From contig JAJYKS010000002.1 in assembly GCA_021788365.1 (NCBI GenBank), positions 32,521-96,520 of the forward strand: 64,000 nucleotides of DNA, read 5' to 3'. The notes below the pieces were generated by a model, which ran no database searches, was not told the DNA's origin, and worked only from the letters and a program-made list of their open reading frames with translations. How positions within the stretch are numbered: position 1 is the first letter of the stretch; each line of letters begins with the position of its first letter. This document shows positions 3,567 through 62,967 of this stretch, in pieces. A program made the position numbers and the translations under genes. Source of the stretch: a bacterium. Lineage in GTDB: Bacteria > Patescibacteriota > Microgenomatia > UBA1400 > UBA12108.

Positions 3567-3665
3567 TCCCTATCCATCCGTAGCCACGGGCATAGTCGGG
3601 TGCTACACTAAACGTACTGCCCCCACCGCGATACTGGAATACTGCAAAACTGGAATACATACTAT

Positions 3666-7133: not shown

Positions 7134-7403
7134 TTACGGCTCGTCAAGAGAGGAAGAATTCAAGATTGGAGGGTAAATTTTTTCATGCAAGCTATAATAA
7201 ACATGATCGAGAATTATGCCGGCAAACAGGTCAAAGAATTGTGCCTCAAGGGTTTTATCGGTAAGTAGTTTTGGGAGCAAAAACGCAAAGGGTGAATAAA
7301 GTACAATATCATCGAAACCCAATCTGGTCAGATAGTAATCTACTTGTCTGCAAAATTCAGAATACATAACCCATAGTATAATTTATCTTCAAGAAAATGG
7401 CAA

Positions 7404-7440
7404 TTGACATTCGGGCTATATTCGGGTTATATAGAAATAT
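7404..7440 (+). promoter_or_regulatory. Putative promoter/operator: TTGACA, 18-nt spacer with tandem ATTCGGG half-repeats, TATATA, short leader
   Basis: TTGACATTCGGGCTATATTCGGGTTATATAG lies directly upstream of the ATG at 7441. A near-identical motif sits upstream of lexA at 38600-38640. Confidence 0.4.
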
Positions 7441-7701
7441 ATGATCCAAAGAATATCCGAACCTGTTTCAGTTAGCGTCACCTTTAATCACCGCTCTCAC
7501 GAGACCAAACCCGTTTCTATCCACTGGGCTGGTCGGGTTTATCCCGTGGAGCGCATCGGCCTCCGCCACTCGTATCGAGATGGGATCTCTCGCCACCACG
7601 TCTTTTCGGTCGTAGGCGGCAGTCTCTTCTTTCGTCTAAACTTGAACGCCGAGAATCTCTCATGGACACTAGAGGAGGTTTCTGATGGCTTGCCGGACTA
7701 A
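7441..7701 (+). CDS. Small hypothetical protein (86 aa) upstream of and co-oriented with the Y-family polymerase
   Basis: ORF sits directly behind the shared promoter motif; no recognisable domain. Confidence 0.4.
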   Translation: MIQRISEPVSVSVTFNHRSHETKPVSIHWAGRVYPVERIGLRHSYRDGISRHHVFSVVGGSLFFRLNLNAENLSWTLEEVSDGLPD

Positions 7702-7716
7702 TGGCATCCCAGATTA

Positions 7717-7753
7717 CATACCTGGTATGAATAGCTCCCACATACCGGGTATG
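7717..7753 (+). promoter_or_regulatory. Two tandem 13-15-bp palindromes (ACATACC-N-GGTATG[T/A]) about 24 bp apart, just upstream of the Y-family polymerase start
   Basis: CATACCTGGTATG (7717-7729) and the perfect 15-mer ACATACCGGGTATGT (7740-7754) are seen in sequence. If translated from the 7685 ATG they would encode the repeat IPGM...IPGM, so they are more likely non-coding operator sites. Confidence 0.35.
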
Positions 7754-7783
7754 TCTCTCTTCAATCCCGCTCCACCCCGCGTC

Positions 7784-8956
7784 ATGCACATCGATCTCAA
7801 CAGTTGCTTTGCCTCGGTCGAAGCACAGGCCAACCCACTTCTACGCGGCAAGCCGCTTGCCGTCGCAGCCTACGCGAAACCTTATGGTTGCATCTTGGCT
7901 GCAAGCTACGAGGCCAAGCTCTACGGGGTAAAGACAGGAATGACAGTAAGAGAAGGGCGGGAGCTTTGTCCCTATCTCGTGGTTCGGGAGCCAGATCCCG
8001 ACAAATACCGGCAGGTACACAAGGAAATTGGTCAGCTCTTGTCGGAATATGCGCCGCACCCAGTGAGTAAATCCATCGACGAATATTGCTTGCCCCTCCG
8101 TAGCCTTTATAGCGAAGGGGGGTCTAACGTCAGATCTATCGCTCAGGAGATCAAAGACAGGATTAAATCCGAGATCGGCGACCATCTCCGTGTCTCGGTG
8201 GGCATCTCCACAAATCAAATCCTAGCCAAGCTCGCCTCCGGTCTCCACAAGCCTGACGGACTCGATGTTTTAGACAAAACCAACTATCTCGCTATATACA
8301 AAAAGATAGAGCTGCAAGATTTTTGTGGGATAAACATAAGAAACGAAGCACGCCTCAATCGTGTAGGAGTTTTCACTGCTCTAGAGTTTTCACAGGCGTC
8401 AGTCCAAACACTTCAGTCTGCCTTCCAGTCCGTTCTCGGCCGCTACTGGTACACACGACTCCGGGGATATGAAGTAGACGACGTAGAGTTTGCCCGTCGC
8501 AGTTTCGGCCAATCATATGTCCTCCCACACCCGATGAAACAAGAGGAATGGCGTCCCATCCTCGCCAAACTAGTTGGAAAGGCCGCGAGGAGGCTACGTA
8601 GAGGTGGATACAGTGCCTCCGGAGTACATCTCGCACTCAGGTACGGAGATGGCTCGCATTGGCATACGGGCAAAGCGTTAAAGGTAGCTATTTCTGACGA
8701 CAAGGATATCGTGAGCGCAGCCCTTTCTCTCTGCAAGCTCACAGATAGGCCAGTCAAAAAAATTGCCGTCACCTGTTTTGGATTGGTAAAAGAGGAGAGT
8801 AGACAAACCTCTCTGTTTGAAGACGTTGCCAGGAAACGCTCGCTCGTCCTAGCCATGGACCAGGTGAATGATAAATGGGGCGAATACTCGCTCTCGTATG
8901 GCTCGCTGATGGGCGCCGCTGGCCACGTCCGCGACGCGATCGCCTTTGGGAAATAG
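7784..8956 (+). CDS. dinB: Y-family DNA polymerase (Pol IV/DinB-like)
   Basis: MHIDLNSCFASVEAQANP...LAV is the classic Y-family N-terminus. An alternative upstream ATG at 7685 overlaps the small ORF. Confidence 0.85.
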   Translation: MHIDLNSCFASVEAQANPLLRGKPLAVAAYAKPYGCILAASYEAKLYGVKTGMTVREGRELCPYLVVREPDPDKYRQVHKEIGQLLSEYAPHPVSKSIDEYCLPLRSLYSEGGSNVRSIAQEIKDRIKSEIGDHLRVSVGISTNQILAKLASGLHKPDGLDVLDKTNYLAIYKKIELQDFCGINIRNEARLNRVGVFTALEFSQASVQTLQSAFQSVLGRYWYTRLRGYEVDDVEFARRSFGQSYVLPHPMKQEEWRPILAKLVGKAARRLRRGGYSASGVHLALRYGDGSHWHTGKALKVAISDDKDIVSAALSLCKLTDRPVKKIAVTCFGLVKEESRQTSLFEDVARKRSLVLAMDQVNDKWGEYSLSYGSLMGAAGHVRDAIAFGK

Positions 8957-8981
8957 CCTGCGTACGATATGCTATAAACCT

Positions 8982-9500
8982 ATGCAAAAATATACCCTCA
9001 TCCGCTCCTCGCGCCGCCGCCGAAGCGCTTCACTCAATCTGACAAAGGACGGCGAAGTAGTGGTACGTGCGCCCATAGGCATGCCACTCGCGTTTATAGA
9101 ACAATTTGTTGGCGGCCACACCCGGTGGATAGAGAAACGTCGCCGGGAACTTCTGCACCGCCACCGCCCACAGCCAGTACGAGCCATGACAGACAGAGAA
9201 CTTGAAGGTCTCGTCAGTACCCACATTGGGTACTATGCCGTGCGTATGGGTGTGAGCCCCAAAGCCATACGGTACAAACAAGTTACAACCTACTGGGGTT
9301 CCTGCTCGCCAACAGGTGTTCTCAGTTTCAATACCAGGCTTGTCTATACCAGTAAAGACACGGTGGAGTACGTCGTCGTCCACGAGCTCGCACACCTTAG
9401 GTGGCGAGGTCACGGCAAACGGTTCTGGGCCTTGGTAAAACAGATCTATCCACGCACCGAAGAAGTTCGTGCCTATTTACGGCATATCCCACGCGAATAA
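8982..9500 (+). CDS. DUF45/YgjP-like zinc metallohydrolase (HExxH)
   Basis: VVHELAHL motif and overall YgjP-like layout. Confidence 0.6.
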   Translation: MQKYTLIRSSRRRRSASLNLTKDGEVVVRAPIGMPLAFIEQFVGGHTRWIEKRRRELLHRHRPQPVRAMTDRELEGLVSTHIGYYAVRMGVSPKAIRYKQVTTYWGSCSPTGVLSFNTRLVYTSKDTVEYVVVHELAHLRWRGHGKRFWALVKQIYPRTEEVRAYLRHIPRE

Positions 9501-21402: not shown

Positions 21403-21461
21403 CTTATGGTGAGCTTGTCGAACCATTTGCCTTTTCTTCGGTAACTTCGTATAGTGGATGC

Positions 21462-21938
21462 ATGACTCGCATACTCGGTATAGACCCCGGCACGCACCGT
21501 GTAGGATGGGGCATCATTGAGGGCCCCCGACGCGATCCCGTCGTCGTCGCCTATGGCTGCCTAGAGTCGCCACCTCACACAGAAAAAGCTATGTACCTCC
21601 AAAAAATACGTCGCGAGCTTGGGAGTATCCTCGACACGTACCAACCGACAGCGGCCAGTTTAGAAACATTGCTATTCAAGAAAAACGCCAAAACAGCCAT
21701 TTCCGTCGCCGAAGCACGGGGAGTGATCATAGAGGTACTTGCCGCTCGTGGCCTAACACTAGAGGAATATGCCCCAAACACCATCAAAGCAACCGTTGCC
21801 GGGACGGGGAGAGCAGGTAAAAGTGAAGTCGAGCGCATGGTGAGTCTGCTACTTCGCCTAAATACGACTCACATCATAGACGACACAACCGATGCACTCG
21901 CCATAGCCTTGACTGCTCACGCGCGGCAGTCGGTATAA
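21462..21938 (+). CDS. ruvC: Holliday junction resolvase
   Basis: MTRILGIDPGTHRVGWGII and a C-terminal DDTTDALAIAL motif. Confidence 0.85.
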   Translation: MTRILGIDPGTHRVGWGIIEGPRRDPVVVAYGCLESPPHTEKAMYLQKIRRELGSILDTYQPTAASLETLLFKKNAKTAISVAEARGVIIEVLAARGLTLEEYAPNTIKATVAGTGRAGKSEVERMVSLLLRLNTTHIIDDTTDALAIALTAHARQSV

Positions 21939-21949
21939 TAGAGGCACGT

Positions 21950-22504
21950 ATGCTAGCGTATCTAAAAGGTCACATTCTCACTCACACCAAAGACGGTGCC
22001 ATTGTCGCAACCGGCGCCACGGGACACGAGGTAATCGGTGCGTGGCTCGGCCGCAAAAGCGTGGGAGACGAAGTAGTGGTGTGGACCTATGAGTACCTTG
22101 AGAATCAGAGCATACCTCGCTTGGTAGGCTGCCAATCTGCCGAGGGGCGTGCGCTACTTATCGAGCTCTTGGGTGTAAATGGTGTCGGCCCAAAAATGGC
22201 TGGTCGTATATTGGATGCCGGATCGGCCGCACAAATAAAACAAGCGATAACCTCTGGAGATCTCGCCTTTCTGGGGAGTGTCAAAGGTCTCGGTAAAAAA
22301 ACTGCACAAAAAATTGTGCTTGAACTAGGAAAAATACTAGTAGACGCGACAACCACCGCCAATGCGTTCCTGTACGACGCACTTGGCGAGCTCAAGTTTA
22401 CCCGAGCCGAAATCGATAGAGTGCTGGCAACGATAAATATAACCGACTTATCCGAAAGTGAAGCGCTCGCAAAAGTCCTGCAGGCCTTGGGAAGGCGCAC
22501 ATGA
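21950..22504 (+). CDS. ruvA: Holliday junction branch migration protein RuvA
   Basis: Position between ruvC and ruvB; HhH region (LIELLGVNGVGPKMAGRIL). Confidence 0.8.
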   Translation: MLAYLKGHILTHTKDGAIVATGATGHEVIGAWLGRKSVGDEVVVWTYEYLENQSIPRLVGCQSAEGRALLIELLGVNGVGPKMAGRILDAGSAAQIKQAITSGDLAFLGSVKGLGKKTAQKIVLELGKILVDATTTANAFLYDALGELKFTRAEIDRVLATINITDLSESEALAKVLQALGRRT

Positions 22505-23499
22505 CCCCCACCGTAGTCCTCGCACCACACGTTACTCCGGAAGAGATAAAAGCCGAGGAAACGCTTCGCCCACACTCGCTTGCAGACTTTATCGGACAAC
22601 CACGGCTCAAGAAATCGCTAACGCTCGCCCTAGGGGCTGCCGGTAAGCGGCGCGAACCCGTTGACCACATTTTGCTCTACGGCCCCCCTGGCCTTGGCAA
22701 AACAACACTCGCACACATAGTTGCAACCGAGCAGGGAGGAGCTATCCACGTAACAACCGGTCCTGCAGTCTCTCGTGCTGGTGATCTCGCCGCGCTTCTC
22801 ACCAACCTTGAAGAGGGGGACGTACTTTTTGTCGACGAGATACATCGACTACCAAAAACGGTGGAAGAGACGTTGTACTCGGGCATGGAAGATGGTCGTC
22901 TCGACCTTATTTTGGGAAAAGGCCCGGCCGCTCGCACGGTGAGTGTGGAGCTTAAACCATTTACGCTGATAGGCGCGACGACGAGATACGGCGCGCTATC
23001 CGGCCCCTTGCGAAGCCGTTTCGGCATCATCGGAAAACTCGAGTACTATGCGCCAGACGACCTAGAGCGCGTCATCGCACGCTCTGCCGCTATCCTTGGC
23101 ATTCAAGTAGAAGCCGCTGGTGTGCGCGAGCTCGCCGTTCGCTCACGTGGAACACCACGTATAGCCAACCGACTTCTACGCCGCGCACGCGATACCGCCG
23201 AACTGCACCACCAAGGTCTGCTCACCAGCGCGGCCGTTCGTGAAACAGTCGAATTACTGGAAATTGACAGCTTAGGTCTCGATGCCGCGGACCGCGACCT
23301 GCTGCGACTCATTATTAAGAACCACCGGGGCGGCCCCGTTGGAGTGAGCACATTGGCAAGCGCACTATCCGAAGACACCGGCACTATAGAAGAGGTATAC
23401 GAGCCATTCCTCATGCAACTCGGCCTCCTCGCCCGTACACCGCAAGGACGTATTGTCACCGACAAAGCGTACGACCACCTGGGATTAAAAAAAGAATGA
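22501..23499 (+). CDS. ruvB: Holliday junction helicase RuvB
   Basis: LLYGPPGLGKTTLA Walker A, DEIHRL Walker B, sensor motifs. Confidence 0.93.
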   Translation: MTPTVVLAPHVTPEEIKAEETLRPHSLADFIGQPRLKKSLTLALGAAGKRREPVDHILLYGPPGLGKTTLAHIVATEQGGAIHVTTGPAVSRAGDLAALLTNLEEGDVLFVDEIHRLPKTVEETLYSGMEDGRLDLILGKGPAARTVSVELKPFTLIGATTRYGALSGPLRSRFGIIGKLEYYAPDDLERVIARSAAILGIQVEAAGVRELAVRSRGTPRIANRLLRRARDTAELHHQGLLTSAAVRETVELLEIDSLGLDAADRDLLRLIIKNHRGGPVGVSTLASALSEDTGTIEEVYEPFLMQLGLLARTPQGRIVTDKAYDHLGLKKE

Positions 23500-25671: not shown

Positions 25672-27891
25672 ATGCGCTTTACAAAGCCAGTTCCAAAAAA
25701 TGATTTAGAACGAGCGTTGCTCAGCTCTGTCGAAAATGACACTCCCGAACAAATCAAACGCTCGCCACTCATCGACCTAAACAATAGCGAAGCATTCACC
25801 TTCACCCTGAAGCAAGAGCATCTAGAAAAATTCGATTTGAGTAAGGACGCACTCGGAATAGATGATTGGTTTATCAATTACGAAAAGGAAGCAAAAGTTA
25901 GTACCGCGGGAATACGAGGATTACAAAATCCACTGTATCCATGGGATACACGCTATCCACTGAATCTTGTTGGCGTCATGCTAGCGACCATGGGGAAAAT
26001 CCTCGTCGCAAAGGATATTCCAGGTGATAAAGCAAAAATTTCGGCCAGCGAAGTTCGCTACAACTCCGCACAATATGTTGAACTCATTGCACGCCTGCAG
26101 GCAGCGTATGGGATCAAGACATATGTCACCAAAGACTACATGCCCATTCCCATATTTCTCATATCGTTTCTCATCTTTATGTACGACCTCTATGGTGGTG
26201 AATACGTGACGAGTAGTCACGCCATCAGCAAAAAAATTGCGACAAAAGACCTCAACACCCAAGGCAGTCAATACATTCCCGACGAATCGATGCTTTTTGT
26301 TGAAAAAGTCCGTCAAATACTTAAAGAAGTGCGAGAAAAAGGTGAGTATACTATCAACTTTGCTTCCACCACAGATGCAAATATAGATACAACGTTTCTT
26401 AACTCGATAAAAAATGGCACCGACCTCTATGTAAAGTACCTTCGTGACGGTGTCGCGACAGAGACCAATCTAAACAATATTCTCGAGGCAAAACGAAAGA
26501 TATTGGTTGAATGCATGGGTGGGAGCATGTACCAAACTCTCCAACCAGTGCTGAGAGGTCTCGGAATTGGCGATCACTTCGATTTTCTACACAGAGAGAC
26601 AGACCCATTCTTTCACGCTATAGGGAAAGTAATTGACCAAAACAACAAATTTTTCGACTGGAGCTGCGACACAACCATCATGAAGGCAGACACAAAAACA
26701 AAGACTATACGGGTTCCCGTGGTGGATACCGCACATTACGCCGAGCTATTAAAAGACTACCCACTTGGCACCGTGCTGCTCATGACCGACCCGGATGCGG
26801 ATAGGCTGGTAACGGCATACATCGACAGTACCGCAAACAAAGAAAAGCTTGAAAAGCTGGGACTTGTTTTTGGCGAGCTCGATCCTGGTCGCATACTTGT
26901 CATATTTACACCAAATCAGTCATTTCTCCTAACAATAGATTTCCAATATCGAGCATTAAAAGAGGCAGGCCTCTGGGAGAAATACGACTGGCTACTTATG
27001 AAAACGACAGCCTCTCAGCGTAGTTGGGACGAATGGGCAGCAGCACACAAGATACCGGTAAACAACACACCAGTTGGGTTCAAGGAGCTCGCAGATTCCA
27101 TGCAACAGGTGGAGCGCAAGATGCACGACAATCCTGACCAAGATGTCTACCTAAAAGATGTGTTCGGTGAAAACCACAATCTTGGGAGGAATCCCCGGCT
27201 ACTCTTTGCGGGAGAAGAAAGTGGCGGCGAGATATTTGGACCTGCAGAACTTATTTCCAGTCTTGGTGGCCGCACGGCCATCTCGATGCGAGAAAAAAGC
27301 GCAGGTGAGGCGGTGGTTATAACCGCTGCCATGTCCGCTTGGCTCGAATCGCAGAATCTGACCATGACAGATTACTTAGTAAAAGTATTCGACGAAAACA
27401 ACATTACCTCCCGCTACGAGATTCGTATAGACCAAAAATACTACAACGAAAGTGAACCCGATATTGCGACACTACTAAAAGCCAAGAAAAAAGGCATGGA
27501 GGTAAAAAGTAAGAATAACTCCTACTTTCTCTCTCTCGCCATAGGATATCGTGACAACCTGATTACGCTCAAGCAAGTAAAAGAAATCCTCACAGAGTGT
27601 TTTCCCGAGCTTAGCTTCGATGACCTGCGGGATACAAAATTTGTCGGTGACGGAACTTATTTCCTCTTTGCGGACAAATGTTTGGAAGTGCGACCGTCAG
27701 GAACGGACGCCGTCAACAAAGCCTACAGCTATGGCCGAGACCAATGGGAATGTATTACATACGCCCAGGCATTCTCAGCCTACGAAGGAGATCGTACACC
27801 GCTCCACAAACAATATATCCACGACGACTTCTACAAAGACATCGAAAATTACGCATTCCGTCTCTACACCGAATACAAGCAAAACCAGTAA
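25672..27891 (+). CDS. Large alpha-D-phosphohexomutase superfamily protein (739 aa)
   Basis: 'STAGIRG' (substrate-loop-like), 'DPDADR' (metal loop) and 'GEESGGEIFG' (sugar loop) are seen. The usual TASHNP active-site loop is replaced by 'VTSSHAISKK'. Confidence 0.55.
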   Translation: MRFTKPVPKNDLERALLSSVENDTPEQIKRSPLIDLNNSEAFTFTLKQEHLEKFDLSKDALGIDDWFINYEKEAKVSTAGIRGLQNPLYPWDTRYPLNLVGVMLATMGKILVAKDIPGDKAKISASEVRYNSAQYVELIARLQAAYGIKTYVTKDYMPIPIFLISFLIFMYDLYGGEYVTSSHAISKKIATKDLNTQGSQYIPDESMLFVEKVRQILKEVREKGEYTINFASTTDANIDTTFLNSIKNGTDLYVKYLRDGVATETNLNNILEAKRKILVECMGGSMYQTLQPVLRGLGIGDHFDFLHRETDPFFHAIGKVIDQNNKFFDWSCDTTIMKADTKTKTIRVPVVDTAHYAELLKDYPLGTVLLMTDPDADRLVTAYIDSTANKEKLEKLGLVFGELDPGRILVIFTPNQSFLLTIDFQYRALKEAGLWEKYDWLLMKTTASQRSWDEWAAAHKIPVNNTPVGFKELADSMQQVERKMHDNPDQDVYLKDVFGENHNLGRNPRLLFAGEESGGEIFGPAELISSLGGRTAISMREKSAGEAVVITAAMSAWLESQNLTMTDYLVKVFDENNITSRYEIRIDQKYYNESEPDIATLLKAKKKGMEVKSKNNSYFLSLAIGYRDNLITLKQVKEILTECFPELSFDDLRDTKFVGDGTYFLFADKCLEVRPSGTDAVNKAYSYGRDQWECITYAQAFSAYEGDRTPLHKQYIHDDFYKDIENYAFRLYTEYKQNQ

Positions 27892-27908
27892 AGGATAGAA
27901 AGGGATAC

Positions 27909-29264
27909 ATGTCGGATAGTCAGCTTTTTGGGTCTAGTGGCATTAGAGGCGATGCCGCATCTTTTTTTACGAATCAACTCTGTTTTGATCTAGGGAGATC
28001 TTTCGCGCTGTTTCTAAAAAAACACAATCTCCATGGGGCAGTCGCAGTTGGTATGGACCCACGTGAGTCCAGCCCACGTATTAAATCAGCATTTATCCAA
28101 GGCGTGCTTGCTGAGAAATTTTCCGTACTAGATGAAGGCATCATTCCAATCCCAGCCGTAAATTGGGTTTTAAGAGCAGATAAAGATATAGTCGGAAGCA
28201 TTATGGTAACAGGGAGCCACATTAAGGCGCATTTGAATGGGCTTAAATTCTTCGCTTTTGATGATGAAATTCTTAAAGAGCATGAACGAGAAATCCAAAC
28301 GATATACAACCAGCAAAAAAATTTATTTTCATATAAAGAAGCCCCTAGCAACAAAGCTAATCTCATCGCAGCTGGTAATCACAGCAAGGATTACATATCT
28401 TATATATTGGCTAAAGCGGAACCAACAAACCGTCAACTCAAAATAGTGGTTGATGCCGGGAACGGCGCACAGTCGATAATTGCGCCAGAGATTCTTCGAA
28501 AACTTGGTCACAATGTAATAACAATGTATACAAACACCAATGATACTCTGCTATCCAGAGATACTGAGGTAAGTGGTGACTTTATTGAATTGCAAAAGCG
28601 AGTTAAGGCGGAAAAGGCAGATCTTGGAATCGGGTTTGATTCAGACGGAGATCGCATTATATTTATAGACGAAAATGCAGAATTTATTCCAGGCGACTAC
28701 TCTGGTGCACTTATTGCGAAACACTATGACACAGACTCGATAGTAACTCCCATAAATACATCACAGGTTGTGGACCACCTCGGTAAACCTGTATATCGTA
28801 CAAAAGTAGGCTCACCATACGTCGTTGGAAAAATGAAAGAAGTTAAAGCAAGATTTGGCTTTGAAGCAAACGGAGGGGGGATTTTCTCAGATATGTACAG
28901 TCGAGACGGTGGGAGGTCCATGATCGAATTTTTAGACCTCCTACAACTAAAAAACAAAACAGCTTCAGAATTGATGCATGAGCTGCCCAGATTTTATATT
29001 GAACGTGACAAAATTGATTACGATCCAGAAAAAAAAGCAGAGATCATCAAAAAGGCCAAGGAACAATTTTCTGGTAGTAAGTTTGAAGAATTAGATGGGT
29101 TAAAAATATGGGTAAACTCTACAACATGGATTCTCTTCCGTTCGTCTGCAAACGCTCCTGAGTTCCGAATTTTTACCGAAAGCGACAAGGAGGACGTGGC
29201 GAAGGAACTGCTCAAACGTGGCATGGAACTCATCACAAAATATAAAATAGCAGAGACGGTGTAA
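27909..29264 (+). CDS. Phosphomannomutase/phosphoglucomutase family protein (archaeal-type PMM/PGM-like)
   Basis: FGSSGIRG, GFDSDGDR and FEANGGG motifs; the active-site loop is 'VTGSHIKAHLNGLKF'. Start taken at 27909; the 27678 ATG overlaps the upstream gene. Confidence 0.75.
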   Translation: MSDSQLFGSSGIRGDAASFFTNQLCFDLGRSFALFLKKHNLHGAVAVGMDPRESSPRIKSAFIQGVLAEKFSVLDEGIIPIPAVNWVLRADKDIVGSIMVTGSHIKAHLNGLKFFAFDDEILKEHEREIQTIYNQQKNLFSYKEAPSNKANLIAAGNHSKDYISYILAKAEPTNRQLKIVVDAGNGAQSIIAPEILRKLGHNVITMYTNTNDTLLSRDTEVSGDFIELQKRVKAEKADLGIGFDSDGDRIIFIDENAEFIPGDYSGALIAKHYDTDSIVTPINTSQVVDHLGKPVYRTKVGSPYVVGKMKEVKARFGFEANGGGIFSDMYSRDGGRSMIEFLDLLQLKNKTASELMHELPRFYIERDKIDYDPEKKAEIIKKAKEQFSGSKFEELDGLKIWVNSTTWILFRSSANAPEFRIFTESDKEDVAKELLKRGMELITKYKIAETV

Positions 29265-37978: not shown

Positions 37979-38599
37979 TTATTGGCCAAATCGGCGCACA
38001 AGCCCCACCACTTTTCCCTGGACCTTAACATTCTTCGCGTAAATAGGTTTCATGGTACTGTTGGCCGGCTCCAGACGTATCCGCGTAGCCTCCTTAAAAA
38101 ATTTTTTGAGTGTTGCGAGACCGTTGTCGAGAAGGGCGACTACAATATCACCATCGTGTGCCTCGGGATGCTCCTCTACGACAACAAAATCACCGTCGAG
38201 TATCCCTTCGTCAATCATGCTATCACCCCTAACCTGCAGGACAAACGATCGCTTCTTGCCCGTGAGCATCGCCGAAGAGACGCGAAGCGTTGCATTTGGG
38301 TCGGTCATTGGCTGGATTGGCGTCCCCGCCGCAATAAAGCCAAGTATTGGCAACTCCACTCCGTCCACGCTGGTGGCGAGTTTTTCATCAAGCAACTCTA
38401 TCCCACGCACAGCGCCCTCAAATCGTTTGATAACACCCTTCTTCGCAAGTGTCTGCAAGTGCTCGTGAACAGTCGCAAGCGAGGACACTCCCAGTGCATC
38501 AGCGATCTCCTGCAGAGTAGGGGACGTGTTAAATTTTTGGATATACTGAGAAATAAAGTCGACGATCTGTCGCTGTCGCTTATAAAGTGTTATCGGCAT
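37979..38599 (-). CDS. lexA: LexA repressor (S24 peptidase)
   Basis: N-terminal wHTH (LTKRQ...IADALGVSS.ATVHEHL), Ala-Gly cleavage site, Ser (GDSM) and Lys (KKF) catalytic residues. Start placed at MPITLYK; the mRNA is near-leaderless. Confidence 0.88.
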   Translation of the reverse strand: MPITLYKRQRQIVDFISQYIQKFNTSPTLQEIADALGVSSLATVHEHLQTLAKKGVIKRFEGAVRGIELLDEKLATSVDGVELPILGFIAAGTPIQPMTDPNATLRVSSAMLTGKKRSFVLQVRGDSMIDEGILDGDFVVVEEHPEAHDGDIVVALLDNGLATLKKFFKEATRIRLEPANSTMKPIYAKNVKVQGKVVGLVRRFGQ

Positions 38600-38640
38600 A
38601 GCTTTACTGTAACCCAAATAAATCCCGTATGTCAAGCATG
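38600..38640 (-). promoter_or_regulatory. lexA promoter/putative operator: TTGACATACGGGATTTATTTGGGTTACAGTA
   Basis: 26/31 identical to the motif at 7404-7434; TTGACA, 18 nt, TACAGT, then 6 nt to the ATG. Confidence 0.4.
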
Positions 38641-38674
38641 CGCTTGAAAAGCAAGTGCATGATATTATGTCTCC

Positions 38675-46345: not shown

Positions 46346-46420
46346 GGTGAGTGTAGCTCAGCTGGTTAGAGCGCGTCCCTGTGGAGGATGAGGTCGCCGG
46401 TTCGATCCCGGTCACTCACC
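46346..46420 (+). tRNA. tRNA-His (anticodon GTG) with encoded G-1 and C73
   Basis: Acceptor GTGAGTG/CACTCAC, G-1, anticodon loop CTGTGGA. Confidence 0.85.
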
Positions 46421-48016
46421 CATTACAGGATTATTCGACAAATAATCCTTAAAATGCACCATGTTATCGGTCTTTTCGAGAGGTTCGAACCTCCTAGCGA
46501 TTGCGCGGACGTCACAAGCCACAGATTTGAGCATAAATAGGGGTTTTTTGAGCTGTATATCGAGGACTCCATCGGTTAGCACTAGGTTCGAACCAAGATA
46601 GCTCACGATCTCCCGCCGCGTGCGCTCGTCACCATGGGCGAACCGCTCGGCTGCCGTTGCGGCGAATGACAGGTCCTGATCTAGCTCTTGGAGTCGCTCG
46701 TCCACTCTAGTATCGATACTATCGAGGAGCCGTTTCCGCGTCTCCTTGTCGTGCTCTAGCTCGGCCAGGCGGCGCTGGTAGTAGTCTTCGGGCACCTTGT
46801 CGTCGAGATATTTCCCGACCAGCGTGTCCATCTGCTTGAGGACCTCATTATAGCCAGTTTGTGCCTGCTGGAGGCTCGTCTGCCGATCACCTACGGACTT
46901 CTCCTGATCCTTTTTGATCTCACCGATTGCCCAGTCGTGGAATCCTTCGGGTATCTGGACCGCATCGAGAAGCTCACCGAACTGACGCTCCAGTTCTGTC
47001 GAAAGGAGGTAATGTTGGCGGCACGGCCCTTTTTTCTTCGTGCAGCGGTAATAGGTATAGCTATGGGTATTGCCGTTTTCCTGATGTTTTGTCTTTTTCT
47101 CTGCAGTGATCGAGCACCCGCACTCGCCGCACGACATGAGACCAGTATAAGGGAAGTAATGGGTCTTGGGACGAGGCTTATTCTTGAGTCCCAGTACGTA
47201 CTGGATCTCCTCAAACTCTTCGGGTTCGATCGCTTTTTTCGCCTTCGAGTCGTAAAAGGTCCCCGAGCTTGCAGGATACTCAAATCTCCCCGCGTACATC
47301 GGGTTTACCAGGAGATCGTACCAGGTTGTAGAGGGGAGCGTATCAACACGCTTACCGTGGAGACCCAAGGACTCCATATACACGCGTGCCTCGGCGGGTA
47401 TCATCTGGTGGCTGGCGACTAGCTTGAGCCCCTTGGAGACGAGGTCAAACACGTCGTTCGGTAGTATCTCGTCTTCTCCGAGCCGCTTGTACTGGGCATG
47501 ACGGTAGCCGAGCGGCAGACTCGCACCAGGGTACCAACCCCGTTCCGCCTTCTTGAGAAGCCCACGGTGAGTATCGGCACTGAGGTCTCGGCTAAACTGG
47601 TTCGTGAGACCGAACTCGACATACATCATCATGACGTTGTCTTCTGGGTACCAGTTACGGTCGACCGTGCGGATATGTTTGATCTCCCCACGCTGAAGCA
47701 TCCCCATGATCCGCCCTGCGTCGTCGGGGTTACGGGAGAGGCGGGAGAGCTTCCAGACGACAATCCCGTCCGCCTCGCCATTCTCAATCCGCTCAACCAT
47801 CCTGTTGAAAACTGGGCGGCCCACCTTGAACCCAGAGCACGACTCGCTCATAGTATCGACTACTTTGAGCTGATTATCGTGCGCCACATCCCCCATGACC
47901 TCGATCTGGGACTCGATCGAGGCTACCTGGCGGTCCTCGTTCGTCGAGCTTTTACGTGCGTAGACAAAGTAGCGGAGAGGTAGCTTTGGCTTGGTACTAG
48001 AGGTAGGAGCGTACAT
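46412..48016 (-). CDS. Large serine recombinase (resolvase domain + recombinase domain + zinc ribbon)
   Basis: 'YVYARKSSTNEDRQVASIESQ' (catalytic Ser) and 'GIVVWKLSRLSRN'; 534 aa; C-terminal Cys pairs. Confidence 0.85.
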   Translation of the reverse strand: MYAPTSSTKPKLPLRYFVYARKSSTNEDRQVASIESQIEVMGDVAHDNQLKVVDTMSESCSGFKVGRPVFNRMVERIENGEADGIVVWKLSRLSRNPDDAGRIMGMLQRGEIKHIRTVDRNWYPEDNVMMMYVEFGLTNQFSRDLSADTHRGLLKKAERGWYPGASLPLGYRHAQYKRLGEDEILPNDVFDLVSKGLKLVASHQMIPAEARVYMESLGLHGKRVDTLPSTTWYDLLVNPMYAGRFEYPASSGTFYDSKAKKAIEPEEFEEIQYVLGLKNKPRPKTHYFPYTGLMSCGECGCSITAEKKTKHQENGNTHSYTYYRCTKKKGPCRQHYLLSTELERQFGELLDAVQIPEGFHDWAIGEIKKDQEKSVGDRQTSLQQAQTGYNEVLKQMDTLVGKYLDDKVPEDYYQRRLAELEHDKETRKRLLDSIDTRVDERLQELDQDLSFAATAAERFAHGDERTRREIVSYLGSNLVLTDGVLDIQLKKPLFMLKSVACDVRAIARRFEPLEKTDNMVHFKDYLSNNPVMGE

Positions 48017-48032
48017 ATACGACCAGCTTACA

Positions 48033-49175
48033 CTATTTGCTCGTAGTTTGTAGTCGTACCATCTCTGCTGCTATCTGGCGAGCCAGATCATTCGTGCCTC
48101 CAGATGTAGCATTACCGGAAAAGTCTATAGATCGGACGATCTCGTTCACTCTCCCAGGGTCGATCGCGCCGTATGCTTGGTAGGTCGTCGCAATATGCTC
48201 GTGGCCTAGGTTTTGTGAGAGAGCCTTCATCTGCTCGGGGGTAGTAATGTGTTTCTCCGTCTCGGCCGTCACGAAATGGCGGAATGTATGGGGGTAGAAA
48301 TAGGGGAGTCTCATTTGCTTACACCGATCGCGGAAAATCGTACGCATCGAACCAGCATCGGCCCAAAATGCCTTACTCACCCCTTTGGCCTCGTACGCAT
48401 AGTTATCTGGTCCTATCTGGCCGATCTCGGTACTCGGGAAAAGTGGGTCATCCAGCCCGTAGTGTTTCTCTCGGGTGAGGTACTCGTACCACTCGGTGAA
48501 GTAACCCGTGAGCGTGCTATCGAGGGGTAGGAGTGTGGTGTAGATGTCCTTGTTAAACTTCGTCTTTACCCCTAGTGACGGAAGTTGTTTTACGAGTCGT
48601 GCCGCTGGATCATAACACCGTATCGAGAGTGACACGACCGCCCTATCCCGCATCCCCGTGAGCGACGTGAAGGCAATGAGAGCACGGTCCCGCCGATCTG
48701 TCTCCGAGAATGTGGGGAAGCTACAAAGTTGCCTGATCTGCTCCAGGGTAGGATAGCTCGGGAGCCTGGCAGAGAGCGCCTCTCGTTGCTCGCCGCGGGA
48801 TAACTTGAGGTAACTGGCGTACTCTGGACGGACCCGCGACTTGTATCCTGGCTGGCTCGATAGCCACGCAAAGAAGTTGCGGACGTGGCGGAGTGTGTAG
48901 TACCTACTCTTGAGGCCCAGAGGTCGTCCAGAACGTTCATTTGCATGGGTCCCCAGGTACCGCTTAAACTGCTCTGCCCGCTTGTCCGTAAACCGTACGA
49001 AGTCCTCGTAATCGCTAAACTCCTCATACTTGCCGATGGCCTTCTCTACCAATCGGATAGAAGCATCACTCATCTGCTCAGGTCCCTTTAGCCAGGACCA
49101 GTAACGCCGTTTCACCAGCTCGTTTTTCTGCCGAATCTCCCCACTCGTAGACATATTATTCCTTCCCACTCCCAA
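48033..49175 (-). CDS. Tyrosine recombinase/phage-type integrase
   Basis: C-terminal 'HTFRHFVTA...LGHEHIATTYQAY' (R-H-R-Y catalytic box). Confidence 0.8.
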   Translation of the reverse strand: MGVGRNNMSTSGEIRQKNELVKRRYWSWLKGPEQMSDASIRLVEKAIGKYEEFSDYEDFVRFTDKRAEQFKRYLGTHANERSGRPLGLKSRYYTLRHVRNFFAWLSSQPGYKSRVRPEYASYLKLSRGEQREALSARLPSYPTLEQIRQLCSFPTFSETDRRDRALIAFTSLTGMRDRAVVSLSIRCYDPAARLVKQLPSLGVKTKFNKDIYTTLLPLDSTLTGYFTEWYEYLTREKHYGLDDPLFPSTEIGQIGPDNYAYEAKGVSKAFWADAGSMRTIFRDRCKQMRLPYFYPHTFRHFVTAETEKHITTPEQMKALSQNLGHEHIATTYQAYGAIDPGRVNEIVRSIDFSGNATSGGTNDLARQIAAEMVRLQTTSK

Positions 49176-49620
49176 GTGAGTGATACAAAGAGGGCTGGTG
49201 GTCTACATTAGTACCTTCTCCCTCCGCTAATATATGTACTGGTTTGGTGAAATACTTACGTACATCATGACCGCACACCGCGCACTTTCCCTGATACTGT
49301 ATCTCCTCCATTCCCGTCCCGATCCGTTTATGGCAATCTACTACTTTAACGTCGAGACCCTTGACCGCCGTGTGGCACGAGAAGCAAAAAAACTCATCGG
49401 TGCCGAGTGGCACCCGTCGCGCTGCCTGTCGGCTGCGGCAATAGCGCCGCACCTCGTCGCCTAGATAGAGCGAGAAGTGACTGTCGGGGTCGATTGGCCG
49501 CAACCCCCCAGCTCGCCACGTGCGAATAGTCTGCGGGTGGACGCCAAGGCATTCGGCCAGCTCGGTAGTGCTATAGCTCCGTATCCCGATCAGCCTGCGG
49601 GTGCTAATGCGCTTCTTCAT
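49156..49620 (-). CDS. Excisionase/MerR-like HTH DNA-binding protein with C-terminal Cys4 zinc ribbon
   Basis: 'STTELAECLGVHPQTIRTWRAGG' HTH; CFSCH...CAVCGH. Confidence 0.5.
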   Translation of the reverse strand: MKKRISTRRLIGIRSYSTTELAECLGVHPQTIRTWRAGGLRPIDPDSHFSLYLGDEVRRYCRSRQAARRVPLGTDEFFCFSCHTAVKGLDVKVVDCHKRIGTGMEEIQYQGKCAVCGHDVRKYFTKPVHILAEGEGTNVDHQPSLYHSLGSGKE

Positions 49621-49818
49621 ACGTCCTCATGGCTGGTTTACGACTTGGCAGATATACGGCACGGTACAGGTTCACCAAATTGGTCCCAAGCTTTTCCGCA
49701 TCCTCATCCGACAGCTCCACCCCATACTCTTGGAGATATAACTTCTGAAAGGCAATAAGTGAATCTCTTGCTAACATACCTCCAAAATATATGGAGGCAC
49801 TTGATCAACCGAGATCAA

Positions 49819-51048
49819 CTATTGATCAACAACCGCGACGGAGCTATCCAAACTCTCCCGACCGCCTAGATAATCATGGTTAAAGCTAGCACTGTGCATG
49901 TTGTAGGTAAGAAATCTGACCACACCCAAGTCTCCGGCAATACGACTGACCAGAGCTCGTGCGGCGTCGTAGGGTACTCTCCCTGGATTTTTTACTTTCC
50001 CGACATCGACTACGTCCACCATCGAGCCTTTAATATCCTCAAATACAACATTTCCCTCGGGGTCGTCGTCAAGCGCCGCTAACAATATGCCCGCATTGTC
50101 TAGGTCGCGTTTAAACCGATAATCCTTGCCGTTGATCCTCAGGTAAACAAAGTTCTCATCTTTTTTCAAAGACCAGTGAACCCCGATAATTAGGTCGATA
50201 CCACCGGTAGGAGTAACCGGCGTTATACTCGAATGCGTATCTGGTTCTAGCTCTAGGTATTCGAGCGTAAATTGGTGTACCTTAGCTATGTAGTAACGAT
50301 AATCCACAGACTTAAACTCATGCGCCTGCTCTGACGGACCAAATTGCTCTCCCTTAATGATCTTCCTCATCTCTGCCTGCATCGACGACCAGCCCATCAG
50401 CTCAAAAAACTTATTTTTCTTGGCGAAATCGTCGTGGATCTTCCACTTGACGTCGTCGATCGCCCAAAACGCGGTTACGATCTTATCCCAGCTAAACCAT
50501 AGCCTGGTGATCTCGATAATCTTTAGACCAGTCATAATCTGGTCATACTTGGTATAGCTTGGAGAAAACGTCCAGGACGTGATCCGCCGCTCATTACTTA
50601 CTTCTCCATACCTTTGAACAAACTTGAGCTCCGCTTCATTGCCGTCCTCCACCATGGTCATGAGTGCGTAGGATAATTTGTCGTAAAGATCCTCGACATA
50701 GCCCCGAGAGGAGGTCATCCTTCCCTCTACGACATCGCGGAACTCGGCGAGATTTTTAGTCACAACCTTGTCCGTTATCCCAGAATACTTCACATGCGAG
50801 GCCACCTGTTTATAGATTTTCTGTATCTCGTCCACAGCTTTTTGCCACAGTTCATTGACTTCCTTGTACTCGGCGAGCTTTTGCTCCTGGATTGCCTTAA
50901 ACATGCCACCCAAATTTTCCTCTTGGTCAAAGACCCGGACATAATCGTATAGCCAGAGGAAAAAATGCTGCTCGCTATCCGCCGCCATTGCCAAGTCGTA
51001 GATGCGCACAAGCCGCTTGCGTAGTACCTCAACATTTGCCGTTGGCAT
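49819..51048 (-). CDS. Hypothetical protein (409 aa), island cargo
   Basis: Long ORF in a co-directional cluster; no recognisable domain. Confidence 0.4.
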   Translation of the reverse strand: MPTANVEVLRKRLVRIYDLAMAADSEQHFFLWLYDYVRVFDQEENLGGMFKAIQEQKLAEYKEVNELWQKAVDEIQKIYKQVASHVKYSGITDKVVTKNLAEFRDVVEGRMTSSRGYVEDLYDKLSYALMTMVEDGNEAELKFVQRYGEVSNERRITSWTFSPSYTKYDQIMTGLKIIEITRLWFSWDKIVTAFWAIDDVKWKIHDDFAKKNKFFELMGWSSMQAEMRKIIKGEQFGPSEQAHEFKSVDYRYYIAKVHQFTLEYLELEPDTHSSITPVTPTGGIDLIIGVHWSLKKDENFVYLRINGKDYRFKRDLDNAGILLAALDDDPEGNVVFEDIKGSMVDVVDVGKVKNPGRVPYDAARALVSRIAGDLGVVRFLTYNMHSASFNHDYLGGRESLDSSVAVVDQ

Positions 51049-51070
51049 ATACCCTATTTTACGCCGCGGC

Positions 51071-51424
51071 CTACATCGCCAAAGGGACTAGCTCTGTGGC
51101 TCCCGGGACGTCGGGGCTGGCGAAAATGTGATATGTGGTCGCATGGTTCGGATCGGTTCCAGGTTCCAAGACGAGAGCCTCGGCAGGGAAGCCATATTCA
51201 TTGAGGATTGCCAAAATATCGGTATCCGTAGCCTCCGGCGAAACGGAAACTTCTGTCATGGCTGTATCGACAATGTATCCCTCGCTTGTGGGGTGAAATA
51301 CCGGCTGCACATTGCGATGTGCCTGAAGAAGGTCAGGTTTCACGGGTCCAGGGAGAGCCGGAAATCCCTCTACCCACGGATCGGAGACATAGAGGTGTGA
51401 GGATAATTTGCAAGAATAGCTCAT
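51071..51424 (-). CDS. Hypothetical protein (117 aa)
   Basis: ORF; 4-nt overlap with the upstream gene. Confidence 0.3.
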   Translation of the reverse strand: MSYSCKLSSHLYVSDPWVEGFPALPGPVKPDLLQAHRNVQPVFHPTSEGYIVDTAMTEVSVSPEATDTDILAILNEYGFPAEALVLEPGTDPNHATTYHIFASPDVPGATELVPLAM

Positions 51425-53100: not shown

Positions 53101-53105
53101 AATAT

Positions 53106-53522: not shown

Positions 53523-53593
53523 TTGTGCTCCTTTTTATGTATGTATTCTATCCTATGGGTCCACTCCTTGGGAAGAGTTCGGAGTTGTTCACG

Positions 53594-53639
53594 CGCCGCA
53601 CTTGGTGACCATTCTCATGGTCAAGAGCCAAGTGCGGCG
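53594..53639. promoter_or_regulatory. Nested palindrome (CGCCGCACTTGG [TGACCAT TCTC ATGGTCA] AGAG CCAAGTGCGGCG) between two island genes
   Basis: 10-bp outer stem and 7-bp inner stem seen in sequence; no U-tract. Confidence 0.35.
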
Positions 53640-56262: not shown

Positions 56263-56278
56263 CTCCTTTCTTTTAAAT

Positions 56279-62802: not shown

Positions 62803-62967
62803 CAAGATTTTCTGCAAGCCGTTTCTCTGGGTCCGTGCTTGCTCGGCGCCCACACCATAGAAGAACGGGCTAGTGTTACCTCCGTCGAACGGTTTTATAC
62901 CCTCATCTCCCACGTACTGAGCATTGTGTGAACAAAACCCGAAAGTCTGTTATACTGATAGGCTGCT

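What the first reader, a model, noticed from the sequence alone, without database searches (positions are those of the whole stretch)
7404..7440. Shared promoter/operator-like motif upstream of lexA and of the small-ORF/Y-family-polymerase operon
The 31 bp starting at TTGACAT upstream of the 86-aa ORF (7404-7434) and the corresponding region upstream of lexA (38600-38640, minus strand) are 26/31 identical. Both are TTGACAT-N-CGGG-N7-YGGGTTA-YAKTA with an 18-nt spacer and a very short leader. In the first copy the spacer holds a tandem direct repeat ATTCGGG(C/T)TAT. This is the expected signature of a common repressor, most simply LexA, controlling its own gene and an error-prone polymerase cassette. 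The operator would be non-canonical: direct-repeat-like, not a CGAAC-N4-GTTCG Cheo box. A looser relative (CACGGGCATAGTCGGGTGCTACACTA) lies upstream of dnaE at ~3588-3613.
Basis: seen in the sequence. Interest (0 to 1): 0.6.

Follow-up and report, generated by a model that had tools for sequence, protein, structure and literature searches.

The report
Direct-repeat LexA (SOS) operator in CPR bacterium
The shared motif is most likely the binding site of the DNA-damage repressor LexA, a tandem TTCGG repeat inside the promoters of lexA, an error-prone polymerase operon and probably ruvCAB in a Patescibacteria (CPR) genome; this kind of operator has already been reported for the group.

Summary
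TTGACATNCGGG-N7-YGGGTTA occurs exactly twice in 64 kb (0.03 expected). One copy precedes lexA and the other precedes an 86-aa ORF/Pol IV-like operon. Some details are off: the identity is 23/31, not 26/31, and the dnaE 'relative' is no better than chance.

The functional core is a direct repeat, TTCGG-N6-TTCGG with an 11-bp period, that fills the -35/-10 spacer of leaderless promoters. It is conserved at the same promoter position in 98 of 143 non-redundant orthologous upstream regions, against 4 of 2860 shuffled ones. It is present upstream of lexA in 46 of 65 CPR-type loci and in 0 of 15 loci from other phyla.

A matrix built only from relatives ranks as the top four window hits:
- the polymerase promoter;
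- the ruvCAB promoter, which is conserved in 7 of 8 relatives;
- an inverted copy buried in codons 2-7 of the 86-aa ORF, where synonymous sites are frozen;
- the lexA promoter.

LexA itself is canonical, with the Ala-Gly cleavage site and the Ser and Lys catalytic residues.

The kind is already known: a citing paper lists Sánchez-Osuna et al. 2017 among reports of direct-repeat LexA motifs. Binding was not tested here. Interest is modest.

The parts
7404..7409 (+). -35 hexamer TTGACA of the promoter of the 86-aa ORF / Pol IV-like operon
   Evidence: Read. TTGAC directly abuts the repeat in about 70 orthologous promoters.
7410..7425 (+). Operator O1: TTCGG-GCTATA-TTCGG, a perfect direct repeat with 11-bp period that fills the -35/-10 spacer
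   Evidence: Best hit in the window of a matrix built only from relatives, 22.1 bits. Exact match.
7427..7433 (+). -10 region (TTATAT/TATATA). It ends 7-8 nt before the ATG, so the mRNA is leaderless or nearly so.
   Evidence: Sequence. Relatives have TATA(A/T)A at the same place. The consensus scan did not call this promoter because of its strict rule for position 6.
7446..7461 (-). Candidate second operator O2: TTCGG-ATATTC-TTTGG in inverted orientation, inside codons 2-7 of the 86-aa ORF
   Evidence: Third-best window hit at 17.8 bits. The same sequence occurs in about 20 loci of the nearest subclade. Synonymous sites of codons 2-7 are nearly invariant, 0.83 against 0.43 pairwise codon identity, p=0.004.
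7441..7701 (+). 86-aa conserved ORF of unknown function: all-beta, with a weak DUF6504 resemblance
   Evidence: 122 homologs and no Pfam domain on record. AF2 pLDDT 93.4 with 8 strands. No PDB or BFVD relative. DUF6504 is hit weakly by 8 of 25 members.
7685..8956 (+). Y-family (Pol IV/DinB-like) DNA polymerase, overlapping the end of the small ORF
   Evidence: Pfam IMS + IMS_C. The best NCBIfam hits are Pol IV models, all below their equivalog cut-offs. It follows the small ORF in 73 of 80 loci.
8946..9500 (+). YgjP-like (WLM-related) metallopeptidase, third gene of the operon
   Evidence: Pfam PF01863. It follows the polymerase in 14 loci of the nearest subclade.
38614..38629 (-). lexA operator: TACGG-GATTTA-TTTGG in the -35/-10 spacer
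   Evidence: Fourth-best window hit at 16.5 bits. The closest relatives have TGCGG-N6-TT(T/C)GG at the same position.
38606..38635 (-). lexA promoter TTGACA-18-TACAGT. The -10 ends 6 nt before the ATG, so the mRNA is leaderless.
   Evidence: sequence.
37979..38599 (-). lexA (206 aa), canonical self-cleaving repressor
   Evidence: Pfam LexA_DNA_bind + Peptidase_S24. TIGR00498 scores 191 bits against a cut-off of 110.95. The alignment to E. coli LexA keeps the Ala-Gly site, Ser119 and Lys156.
21426..21441 (+). Candidate operator of ruvCAB: TTTGC-CTTTTC-TTCGG. The first half overlaps the -35 and the second lies in the spacer.
   Evidence: Second-best window hit at 18.0 bits. ATTTGCCTTT(T/C)(C/G)TTCGG(G/T) is kept in 7 of 8 relatives, at -37 from the ATG in six of them and moved with its promoter to -81 in one, with unrelated flanks in two. 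Promoter TTGCCT-17-TATAGT.
21462..23499 (+). ruvC-ruvA-ruvB operon
   Evidence: Pfam RuvC; RuvA_N/HHH_5; RuvB_N/RuvB_C.
62927..62944 (-). Weak inverted motif (TTCGG-GTTTTG-TTCAC) 24 nt before uvrB, which starts at 62968 and runs off the window. Doubtful.
   Evidence: 10.9 bits, within the range of shuffles. uvrB was identified.

Best explanation
The motif is the SOS box of a Patescibacteria (Microgenomates-type) bacterium. It is a direct repeat, TTCGG-N6-TTCGG with an 11-bp period, written here as (T/A)CGGG-N6-T(C/T)GGG. It is most likely bound by the canonical, self-cleaving LexA encoded at 37979-38599.

In both promoters named in the finding the repeat occupies the spacer between a consensus -35 (TTGACA) and the -10 of a leaderless promoter. 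Bound LexA would therefore exclude RNA polymerase. After DNA damage, RecA-stimulated self-cleavage of LexA at its Ala-Gly bond would free three promoters: lexA itself (autoregulation), the operon of the 86-aa protein, Pol IV-like polymerase and YgjP-like peptidase, and probably ruvCAB.

The polymerase operon has the best site. In this subclade it also has a second, inverted copy at +6 to +21 inside the coding sequence. That fits the tightest repression falling on the mutagenic function.

Shown here: the sequence, its position in the promoters, its conservation, its specificity for CPR-type lexA loci, and the intact LexA cleavage and catalytic residues. Inferred: that LexA is the protein that binds, that repression works by occlusion, and that DNA damage induces these genes.
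For: - Only two window matches to the full pattern, 0.03 expected.
- The repeat with up to 1 mismatch occurs in 98 of 143 non-redundant upstream regions of lexA and small-ORF orthologs, against 4 of 2860 shuffled. It sits at a fixed place abutting TTGAC.
- It moves with the promoter when a leader is present (L001-L004).
- Several loci carry a second copy without any -35 hexamer, so it is an element of its own and not just promoter sequence (L104-L112, L124, L143, L156).
- In 834 kb of related loci, 175 core hits of 14 bits or more are almost all at these promoters.
- 46 of 65 CPR-type lexA loci have a site, against 0 of 15 loci from other phyla.
- The relatives-only matrix ranks the Y-polymerase, ruvC, O2 and lexA sites 1st to 4th among 128,000 window positions.
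- The ruvC site is conserved in 7 of 8 relatives. uvrB carries a site in WWE3/Saccharibacteria-labelled loci.
- LexA passes TIGR00498 and keeps the Ala-Gly site, Ser and Lys.
- Literature: PMC7739468 lists the Patescibacteria study (Sánchez-Osuna et al. 2017) among cases where LexA evolved a direct-repeat motif. PMC8565304 notes several direct-repeat LexA motifs.
Against: - No binding or expression data were available here, and the 2017 paper could not be read, so identity with its published consensus is unverified.
- The 10 specified bases are weak on their own: up to 1 mismatch gives 6 window hits against 5.5 expected.
- Single scores of 16-18 bits fall within the maximum of some shuffles (mean 13.6, largest 19.9).
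- The lexA site itself has two mismatches.
- The ruvC first half-site (TTTGC) coincides with the -35 hexamer, so part of its conservation could be promoter conservation.
- A perfect TTCGG-N6-TTCGG lies antisense inside a PGM/PMM-like gene (29165-29180) with no obvious role.
- uvrA and uvrC lack sites, and uvrB has only a weak one.
Confidence: 0.85

Rival explanations
1. The similarity is only promoter similarity. Both are strong sigma-70-type leaderless promoters, and the shared spacer bases are a lineage-specific promoter feature with no repressor involved.
For: Both sites begin with a perfect TTGACA and end in a -10. The repeat always abuts the -35. The ruvC first half-site is itself the -35.
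Against: - Spacer sequence is normally free, yet here TTCGG is kept twice in register across loci whose flanks are unalignable.
- Extra copies occur with no -35 hexamer and downstream of the -10.
- An inverted copy lies inside the ORF.
- In the window, the four best matrix hits all lie at the lexA, polymerase-operon and ruvCAB promoters.
- The element is absent from lexA promoters of other phyla.
Confidence: 0.05
2. The repeat is an operator, but for a regulator other than LexA. Candidates are the 86-aa protein itself or an unidentified damage-response factor that also controls lexA.
For: Binding was not tested. A symmetric LexA dimer on a direct repeat is structurally awkward. The 86-aa protein is always co-transcribed and has no known function.
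Against: - The motif precedes lexA across Parcubacteria, WWE3, Saccharibacteria-labelled and Microgenomates loci. The small ORF family, by contrast, gave only 122 hits, and the few named ones are Microgenomates.
- LexA autoregulation is general, and direct-repeat LexA boxes are documented in several clades (PMC8565304, PMC7739468).
- The 86-aa model is all-beta with no recognisable DNA-binding fold.
Confidence: 0.07
3. The two copies come from a recent local duplication or are a chance resemblance with no function.
For: There are only two full-length copies in the window. The bare consensus is not enriched.
Against: Similarity stops at the promoter. Orthologs at 43-87% LexA identity and 51-78% small-ORF identity keep the motif. 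The chance expectation for the full pattern is 0.03.
Confidence: 0.01

Closest known systems
Patescibacteria LexA-binding motif and SOS network (Sánchez-Osuna, Barbé & Erill 2017, Environ Microbiol 19:3465)
   Same: Same superphylum: the LexA homologs are named Microgenomates, Woesebacteria and similar. Same regulator. The motif has direct-repeat architecture, as a citing paper states (PMC7739468). The core regulon is lexA plus a translesion polymerase.
   Different: The paper is not in the library, so I could not compare the consensus, the regulon list or the binding assays. This Microgenomates subclade uses a G-rich variant, (T/A/G)CGGG ... T(T/C)GGG. I do not know whether the inverted intragenic copy, the ruvCAB site or the 86-aa partner gene were described there.
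Alphaproteobacterial (and Acidobacterium) LexA box GTTC-N7-GTTC
   Same: A direct repeat with the same 11-bp period and a shared TTC core, bound by a canonical LexA (PMC8565304 for the motif).
   Different: The half-site differs: TTCGG, not GTTC. No GTTC-N7-GTTC occurs in the window. The phylum is unrelated.
Gram-positive Cheo box CGAAC-N4-GTTCG
   Same: The half-site GTTCG shares TTCG with TTCGG. From my memory of B. subtilis LexA, untested here, the recognition-helix region (S-x-A-T-V-H-E-H-L) resembles the Gram-positive type (SSSTVHGHL).
   Different: The Cheo box is palindromic and this motif is direct. Cheo-like matches are at chance level (32 found, 33 expected) and none lies at these promoters.
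E. coli umuDC / B. subtilis yqjX-yqjW (YolD-like + UmuC-like) SOS cassettes
   Same: A small accessory gene is co-transcribed with, and precedes, a Y-family polymerase under the strongest LexA site of the set.
   Different: The 86-aa protein is neither an S24 peptidase (UmuD) nor a Pfam YolD match. The polymerase is nearer Pol IV than UmuC.

Membership tests
LexA-controlled SOS operator | A canonical LexA is encoded in the genome: winged-helix DNA-binding domain, S24 domain, Ala-Gly cleavage site and Ser/Lys dyad | tested here: met
   Pfam PF01726 + PF00717. TIGR00498 scores 191 against a cut-off of 110.95. The AAG site, the Ser in GDSM and the Lys in TLKK align to E. coli A84-G85, S119 and K156.
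LexA-controlled SOS operator | The site lies in the promoter of lexA itself (autoregulation) | tested here: met
   The site at 38614-38629 lies in the spacer of TTGACA-18-TACAGT. The same holds in 46 of 65 CPR-type lexA loci.
LexA-controlled SOS operator | The same motif lies upstream of other DNA-damage genes (a regulon) | tested here: met
   Pol IV-like operon. ruvCAB, conserved in 7 of 8 relatives. uvrB in L018/L019. uvrA and uvrC lack sites, and recA was not within reach.
LexA-controlled SOS operator | The motif is conserved in orthologous promoters beyond neutral expectation | tested here: met
   98 of 143 regions against 4 of 2860 shuffled.
LexA-controlled SOS operator | LexA binds the site, and the genes are derepressed after DNA damage | not testable with these tools
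   This needs EMSA or footprinting and expression data. No cultured host is available.
Patescibacteria direct-repeat LexA box (Sánchez-Osuna et al. 2017) | The host belongs to the Patescibacteria/CPR | tested here: met
   The closest LexA, RuvC and small-ORF homologs are named Microgenomates, Woesebacteria, Moraniibacteriota or Gottesmanbacteria.
Patescibacteria direct-repeat LexA box (Sánchez-Osuna et al. 2017) | Direct-repeat rather than palindromic architecture | tested here: met
   TTCGG-N6-TTCGG in one orientation. PMC7739468 cites the 2017 study as a direct-repeat case.
Patescibacteria direct-repeat LexA box (Sánchez-Osuna et al. 2017) | Sequence agreement with the published consensus | not testable with these tools
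   The paper is not held, and no citing paper in the library quotes the consensus.
Cheo box (CGAAC-N4-GTTCG) | A palindromic GAAC-N4-GTTC at SOS promoters | tested here: not met
   32 matches against 33 expected, none at the lexA, polymerase or ruvC promoters.
Alphaproteobacterial box (GTTC-N7-GTTC) | GTTC half-sites in direct repeat | tested here: not met
   0 matches in the window. Only the 11-bp period and the TTC core are shared.

The most novel reading that the evidence does not exclude
In this Microgenomates subclade the translesion-polymerase operon may be held by two oppositely oriented direct-repeat operators that bracket the -10 and the transcription start. One lies in the promoter spacer (7410-7425). 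The other is written into codons 2-7 of a leaderless ORF (7446-7461), where it would dictate codon choice. This arrangement would allow a head-to-head pair of LexA dimers. The co-transcribed 86-aa all-beta protein, which has no structural relative in the libraries searched, may be a new accessory subunit of a Pol IV-like polymerase, a functional analogue of UmuD', YolD or ImuA.
Probability: 0.3. Interest if true: 0.55.

Novelty: new member of a known kind. Interest (0 to 1): 0.3.

Why it matters
The finding shows that a minimal-genome CPR bacterium keeps a recognisable SOS circuit: an autoregulated LexA, a translesion polymerase and Holliday-junction resolution. It also gives a concrete operator model for annotating SOS regulons in Microgenomates metagenome-assembled genomes. 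For specialists this mainly confirms and extends published comparative genomics.

The less ordinary parts are by-products:
- a possible operator embedded in coding sequence;
- a conserved, unknown small partner of the polymerase;
- outside the window, LexA fused to DNA methyltransferases in Parcubacteria-type genomes.

Tried and rejected
- **dnaE-upstream 'looser relative' (3581-3604).** Rejected. It scores -10.7 bits, or 0.5 bits with a 10-bp period, which 63 other window positions match.
- **Other CGGG-N7-YGGGT hits (13423, 14689, 21075, 55627).** They lie inside coding sequence or in what looks like a tRNA cluster. Rejected.
- **Perfect TTCGG-N6-TTCGG at 29165-29180 (-).** It lies antisense inside a PGM/PMM-like ORF. 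I treat it as chance or unexplained.
- **uvrB, uvrA and uvrC just past the window.** There is only a weak inverted site before uvrB, so I do not claim them.
- **77-aa minus-strand ORF 7134-7367.** It has a divergent promoter-like site but no homolog in any related locus. Probably not a gene.
- **Literature.** The 2017 Patescibacteria paper and the 2016 Verrucomicrobia paper are not held. Searches for the consensus, for DUF6504 and for LexA-methyltransferase fusions found nothing relevant.
- **Extending the window upstream.** This failed, because the matching contig starts at about window position 1661.
- **A PafBC-type, LexA-independent damage promoter.** Considered from memory only and not pursued, because the motif goes with lexA genes and has operator-like extra copies.

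Full report
**1. The observation**

Site A is TTGACATTCGGGCTATATTCGGGTTA at 7404-7429 (+). It ends 11 nt before the ATG (7441) of an 86-aa ORF. Site B is TTGACATACGGGATTTATTTGGGTTA at 38610-38635 (-). It ends 10 nt before the ATG (38599) of lexA.

The chance expectation is 0.03.

The tandem repeat in site A is real: TTCGGGCTATA / TTCGGGTTATA, 10/11 identical. Three details are wrong:
- The 31-mers are 23/31 identical, not 26/31. The core 26-mer is 22/26.
- The 'YAKTA' tail fits only the lexA copy.
- The dnaE-upstream element at 3581-3604 is no better than background. It scores -10.7 bits, or 0.5 bits if the period is relaxed to 10 bp, and 63 window positions reach that value.

**2. The genes**

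The ORF at 37979-38599 (-) is a canonical LexA.
- It has the Pfam domains LexA_DNA_bind and Peptidase_S24.
- It scores 191 bits on TIGR00498, against a cut-off of 110.95.
- Its alignment to E. coli LexA structures keeps the Ala-Gly cleavage site, the catalytic Ser (GDSM) and the Lys (TLKK).

Downstream of site A lie three genes:
- an 86-aa ORF;
- an overlapping Y-family polymerase with IMS and IMS_C domains, whose best NCBIfam hits are Pol IV models, all below their equivalog cut-offs;
- a YgjP-like metallopeptidase.

The organism is a Patescibacteria/CPR bacterium of the Microgenomates type. LexA homologs at 83-88% identity carry names such as Microgenomates, Woesebacteria and Moraniibacteriota.

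**3. Promoter anatomy**

- lexA has TTGACA-18-TACAGT, and the -10 ends 6 nt before the ATG.
- Site A has TTGACA-17/18-T(T)ATATA, and the -10 ends 7-8 nt before the ATG.
- ruvC has TTGCCT-17-TATAGT, and the -10 ends 6 nt before the ATG.

All three are therefore leaderless or nearly so. At lexA and site A the shared non-hexamer bases fill the spacer exactly.

**4. Comparative test**

I fetched 80 lexA loci from reference genomes and 80 loci of the 86-aa ORF family from metagenomes.

Upstream of lexA, the same element recurs in loci labelled Microgenomates, Beckwithbacteria, Daviesbacteria, WWE3, Saccharibacteria, Nomurabacteria and Parcubacteria. It reads TTGACA-n-TTCGG(G/T)-N5-TTCGG(G/T)-TAnnAT. 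About 70 small-ORF loci have TTGAC-TTCGGG-TTTTA-TTCGGn-TATAa.

TTCGG-N6-TTCGG with at most one mismatch is present in 98 of 143 non-redundant upstream regions. In shuffled versions it is present in 4 of 2860. Position counts show invariant T, T, G, G in both halves and a T-rich spacer.

Three observations separate the element from the promoter hexamers:
- When a leader with a Shine-Dalgarno sequence is present, the element stays with the promoter (L001-L004).
- Several loci have a second copy with no TTGAC, placed between the -10 and the ATG (L104-L112, L124, L126, L130, L143, L152, L156).
- In 834 kb of related loci, the 175 core hits of 14 bits or more are almost all at these two promoters.

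The element is specific to the clade. 46 of 65 CPR-type lexA loci carry a site within 200 nt upstream. None of the 15 loci labelled Acidobacteria, Firmicutes or other phyla does.

**5. Scanning the window with a matrix built only from relatives**

The top core hits were:

| Rank | Coordinates | Strand | Bits | Location |
|---|---|---|---|---|
| 1 | 7409-7426 | + | 22.1 | polymerase operon promoter |
| 2 | 21425-21442 | + | 18.0 | ruvC promoter |
| 3 | 7445-7462 | - | 17.8 | codons 2-7 of the 86-aa ORF |
| 4 | 38613-38630 | - | 16.5 | lexA promoter |
| 5 | 29164-29181 | - | 15.8 | antisense inside a PGM/PMM-like ORF |

In shuffles the maximum score averaged 13.6, and the largest was 19.9. Single scores are therefore not decisive. 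What carries the weight is that four of the top five hits fall on three promoter regions of SOS-type genes.

The bare consensus with up to one mismatch is not enriched window-wide: 6 found against 5.5 expected.

**6. ruvCAB**

The 59-bp gap before ruvC-ruvA-ruvB (Pfam) holds TTTGC-CTTTTC-TTCGG.

I looked at eight relatives with 49-91% RuvC identity. Seven keep ATTTGCCTTT(T/C)(C/G)TTCGG(G/T). In six it sits at -37 from the ATG, including two loci whose upstream gene and flanks differ. In one it has moved with its promoter to -81. The Gottesmanbacteria locus lacks it.

The first half-site coincides with the -35 hexamer, so its conservation is ambiguous. The invariant TTCGG in the spacer is not explained that way. 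I rate ruvCAB membership at about 0.6.

Beyond the window end lie uvrB (starting at window 62968), uvrA and uvrC. Only uvrB has a weak inverted match of 10.9 bits. In WWE3/Saccharibacteria-labelled loci a divergent uvrB does carry a good site. No recA was within reach.

**7. A second operator inside the ORF?**

On the minus strand, 7446-7461 reads TTCGG-ATATTC-TTTGG. This is ATC CAA AGA ATA TCC GAA on the coding strand.

The same nucleotides recur in about 20 loci of the nearest subclade. More distant relatives encode similar residues with other codons.

I compared seven ungapped members at codons whose amino acid is invariant. Pairwise codon identity is 0.83 for codons 2-8 and 0.43 elsewhere (Mann-Whitney p=0.004). 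Ile5, Ser6 (a six-fold degenerate codon) and Glu7 are fixed. Pro8, just outside the motif, varies freely.

So there is nucleotide-level selection that coincides with the motif's limits. Together with O1 it forms a symmetric array, TTCGG-TTCGG ... CCAAA-CCGAA, centred near the -10 and the start. The alternative is a constraint on the 5' end of a leaderless mRNA, and I cannot exclude it.

**8. Mechanism**

LexA most likely binds the direct repeat in the spacer and blocks RNA polymerase. RecA-stimulated self-cleavage would then derepress lexA, the polymerase operon and probably ruvCAB.

The perfect site plus O2 on the mutagenic polymerase, against a two-mismatch site on lexA, parallels the graded operator strengths of the E. 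coli SOS system. That parallel is from general knowledge and is an inference.

How a symmetric dimer reads a direct repeat is unknown. The same question applies to the alphaproteobacterial GTTC-N7-GTTC box, which also has an 11-bp period (motif quoted in PMC8565304).

**9. Comparison with what is known**

No Cheo box or GTTC-N7-GTTC is present or enriched.

Direct-repeat LexA motifs are documented in several clades (PMC8565304). [quoted passage not shown] That paper is not in the library, so I could not check its consensus, regulon or binding assays.

I therefore file this as a new member of a known kind. The TTCG core shared with the Cheo half-site GTTCG suggests descent from the Gram-positive-type box. 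So does the Gram-positive-like recognition helix, though that comparison rests on my memory of B. subtilis LexA. This is a lead, not a test.

**10. The 86-aa protein**

- It is a real gene: 122 homologs with 18 invariant residues.
- It is followed by the polymerase in 73 of 80 loci.
- AlphaFold gives a confident all-beta model of 8 strands, pLDDT 93.4.
- It has no significant match in PDB or BFVD by fold, nor in PDB by profile.
- 8 of 25 members touch DUF6504 weakly.

Its role as a polymerase accessory factor is a guess based on gene order.

**11. Verdict**

The kind is already published for this superphylum. Binding remains untested. Interest is modest, and the side observations listed separately are the more novel leads.

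Noticed in passing
L039:2998-4848, L040:2998-4539, L050:2998-5475, L051:2992-4377, L064:2995-4563, L077:2995-4575; also L038, L055, L057, L059, L066: In 11 of 80 lexA loci, mostly Parcubacteria-type, the LexA ORF reads without a stop into a DNA methyltransferase. The LexA part has the DNA-binding domain, the S24 domain, the Ala-Gly site, Ser and Lys. In the six ORFs scanned with Pfam, four unrelated methyltransferase classes appear: N6_Mtase/Eco57I, D12 Dam, N6_N4, and C5. In those six loci the fused ORF is preceded by a motif hit of 14.9-26.3 bits. Self-cleavage would separate the DNA-binding domain from an S24-methyltransferase fragment. The paper library held nothing on this.
   Followed up: partly
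window 8946-9500: A YgjP-like (WLM-related) metallopeptidase is the third gene of the LexA-controlled polymerase operon here and in 14 related loci. It may be a DNA-protein crosslink protease under SOS control.
   Followed up: partly
window 3631-3656: An exact 10-bp direct repeat, ACTGGAATAC ... ACTGGAATAC with a 16-bp period, lies immediately before the dnaE start at 3666. It is unrelated to the LexA motif and could be another regulator's site.
   Followed up: no
window 38637-38661: A 10-pair hairpin or palindrome, CATGCGCTTGAAAAGCAAGTGCATG, abuts the lexA -35. It lies between lexA and the divergent transglutaminase-like gene at 38675. It is not placed like a terminator of either gene.
   Followed up: no
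window 29165-29180 (-): A perfect TTCGG-TAAAAA-TTCGG lies antisense inside the 3' part of a PGM/PMM-like ORF (27678-29264), with no promoter context. It may be chance (about 0.1 expected, my estimate) or an unexplained internal site.
   Followed up: partly
window 7375-7403 (-) and 7134-7367 (-): A promoter-like site, TTGCCA-17-TATACT, sits back-to-back with the TTGACA of site A and would give a leaderless 77-aa minus-strand ORF. That ORF has no homolog in any related locus.
   Followed up: yes
window about 46400-57400: An apparent integrated mobile element. It carries a serine recombinase, a tyrosine integrase, an HTH protein, an SLT-domain protein and many ORFs without a family. GC skew changes sign near 52-56 kb.
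   Followed up: no
L032:2607-2963, L047:2565-2912: In some Parcubacteria-type loci the LexA site precedes a '23S rRNA-intervening-sequence protein' (bAvd-like four-helix bundle) gene that lies just upstream of lexA.
   Followed up: partly
L004, L009, L010, L025, L028, L066 and others (record titles): Several MAGs have CPR-type LexA at 70-86% identity to Microgenomates and CPR-type operators, yet are labelled 'uncultured Gammaproteobacteria', 'Pseudomonadales' or 'Atribacterota'. These are probably taxonomic mislabels in the records.
   Followed up: no
L043:2960-3000: One Patescibacteria-labelled lexA locus has GTTCTATTTTTGTTCTAT, an alphaproteobacterial-type GTTC-N7-GTTC repeat, directly before lexA in place of TTCGG-N6-TTCGG.
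   Followed up: no
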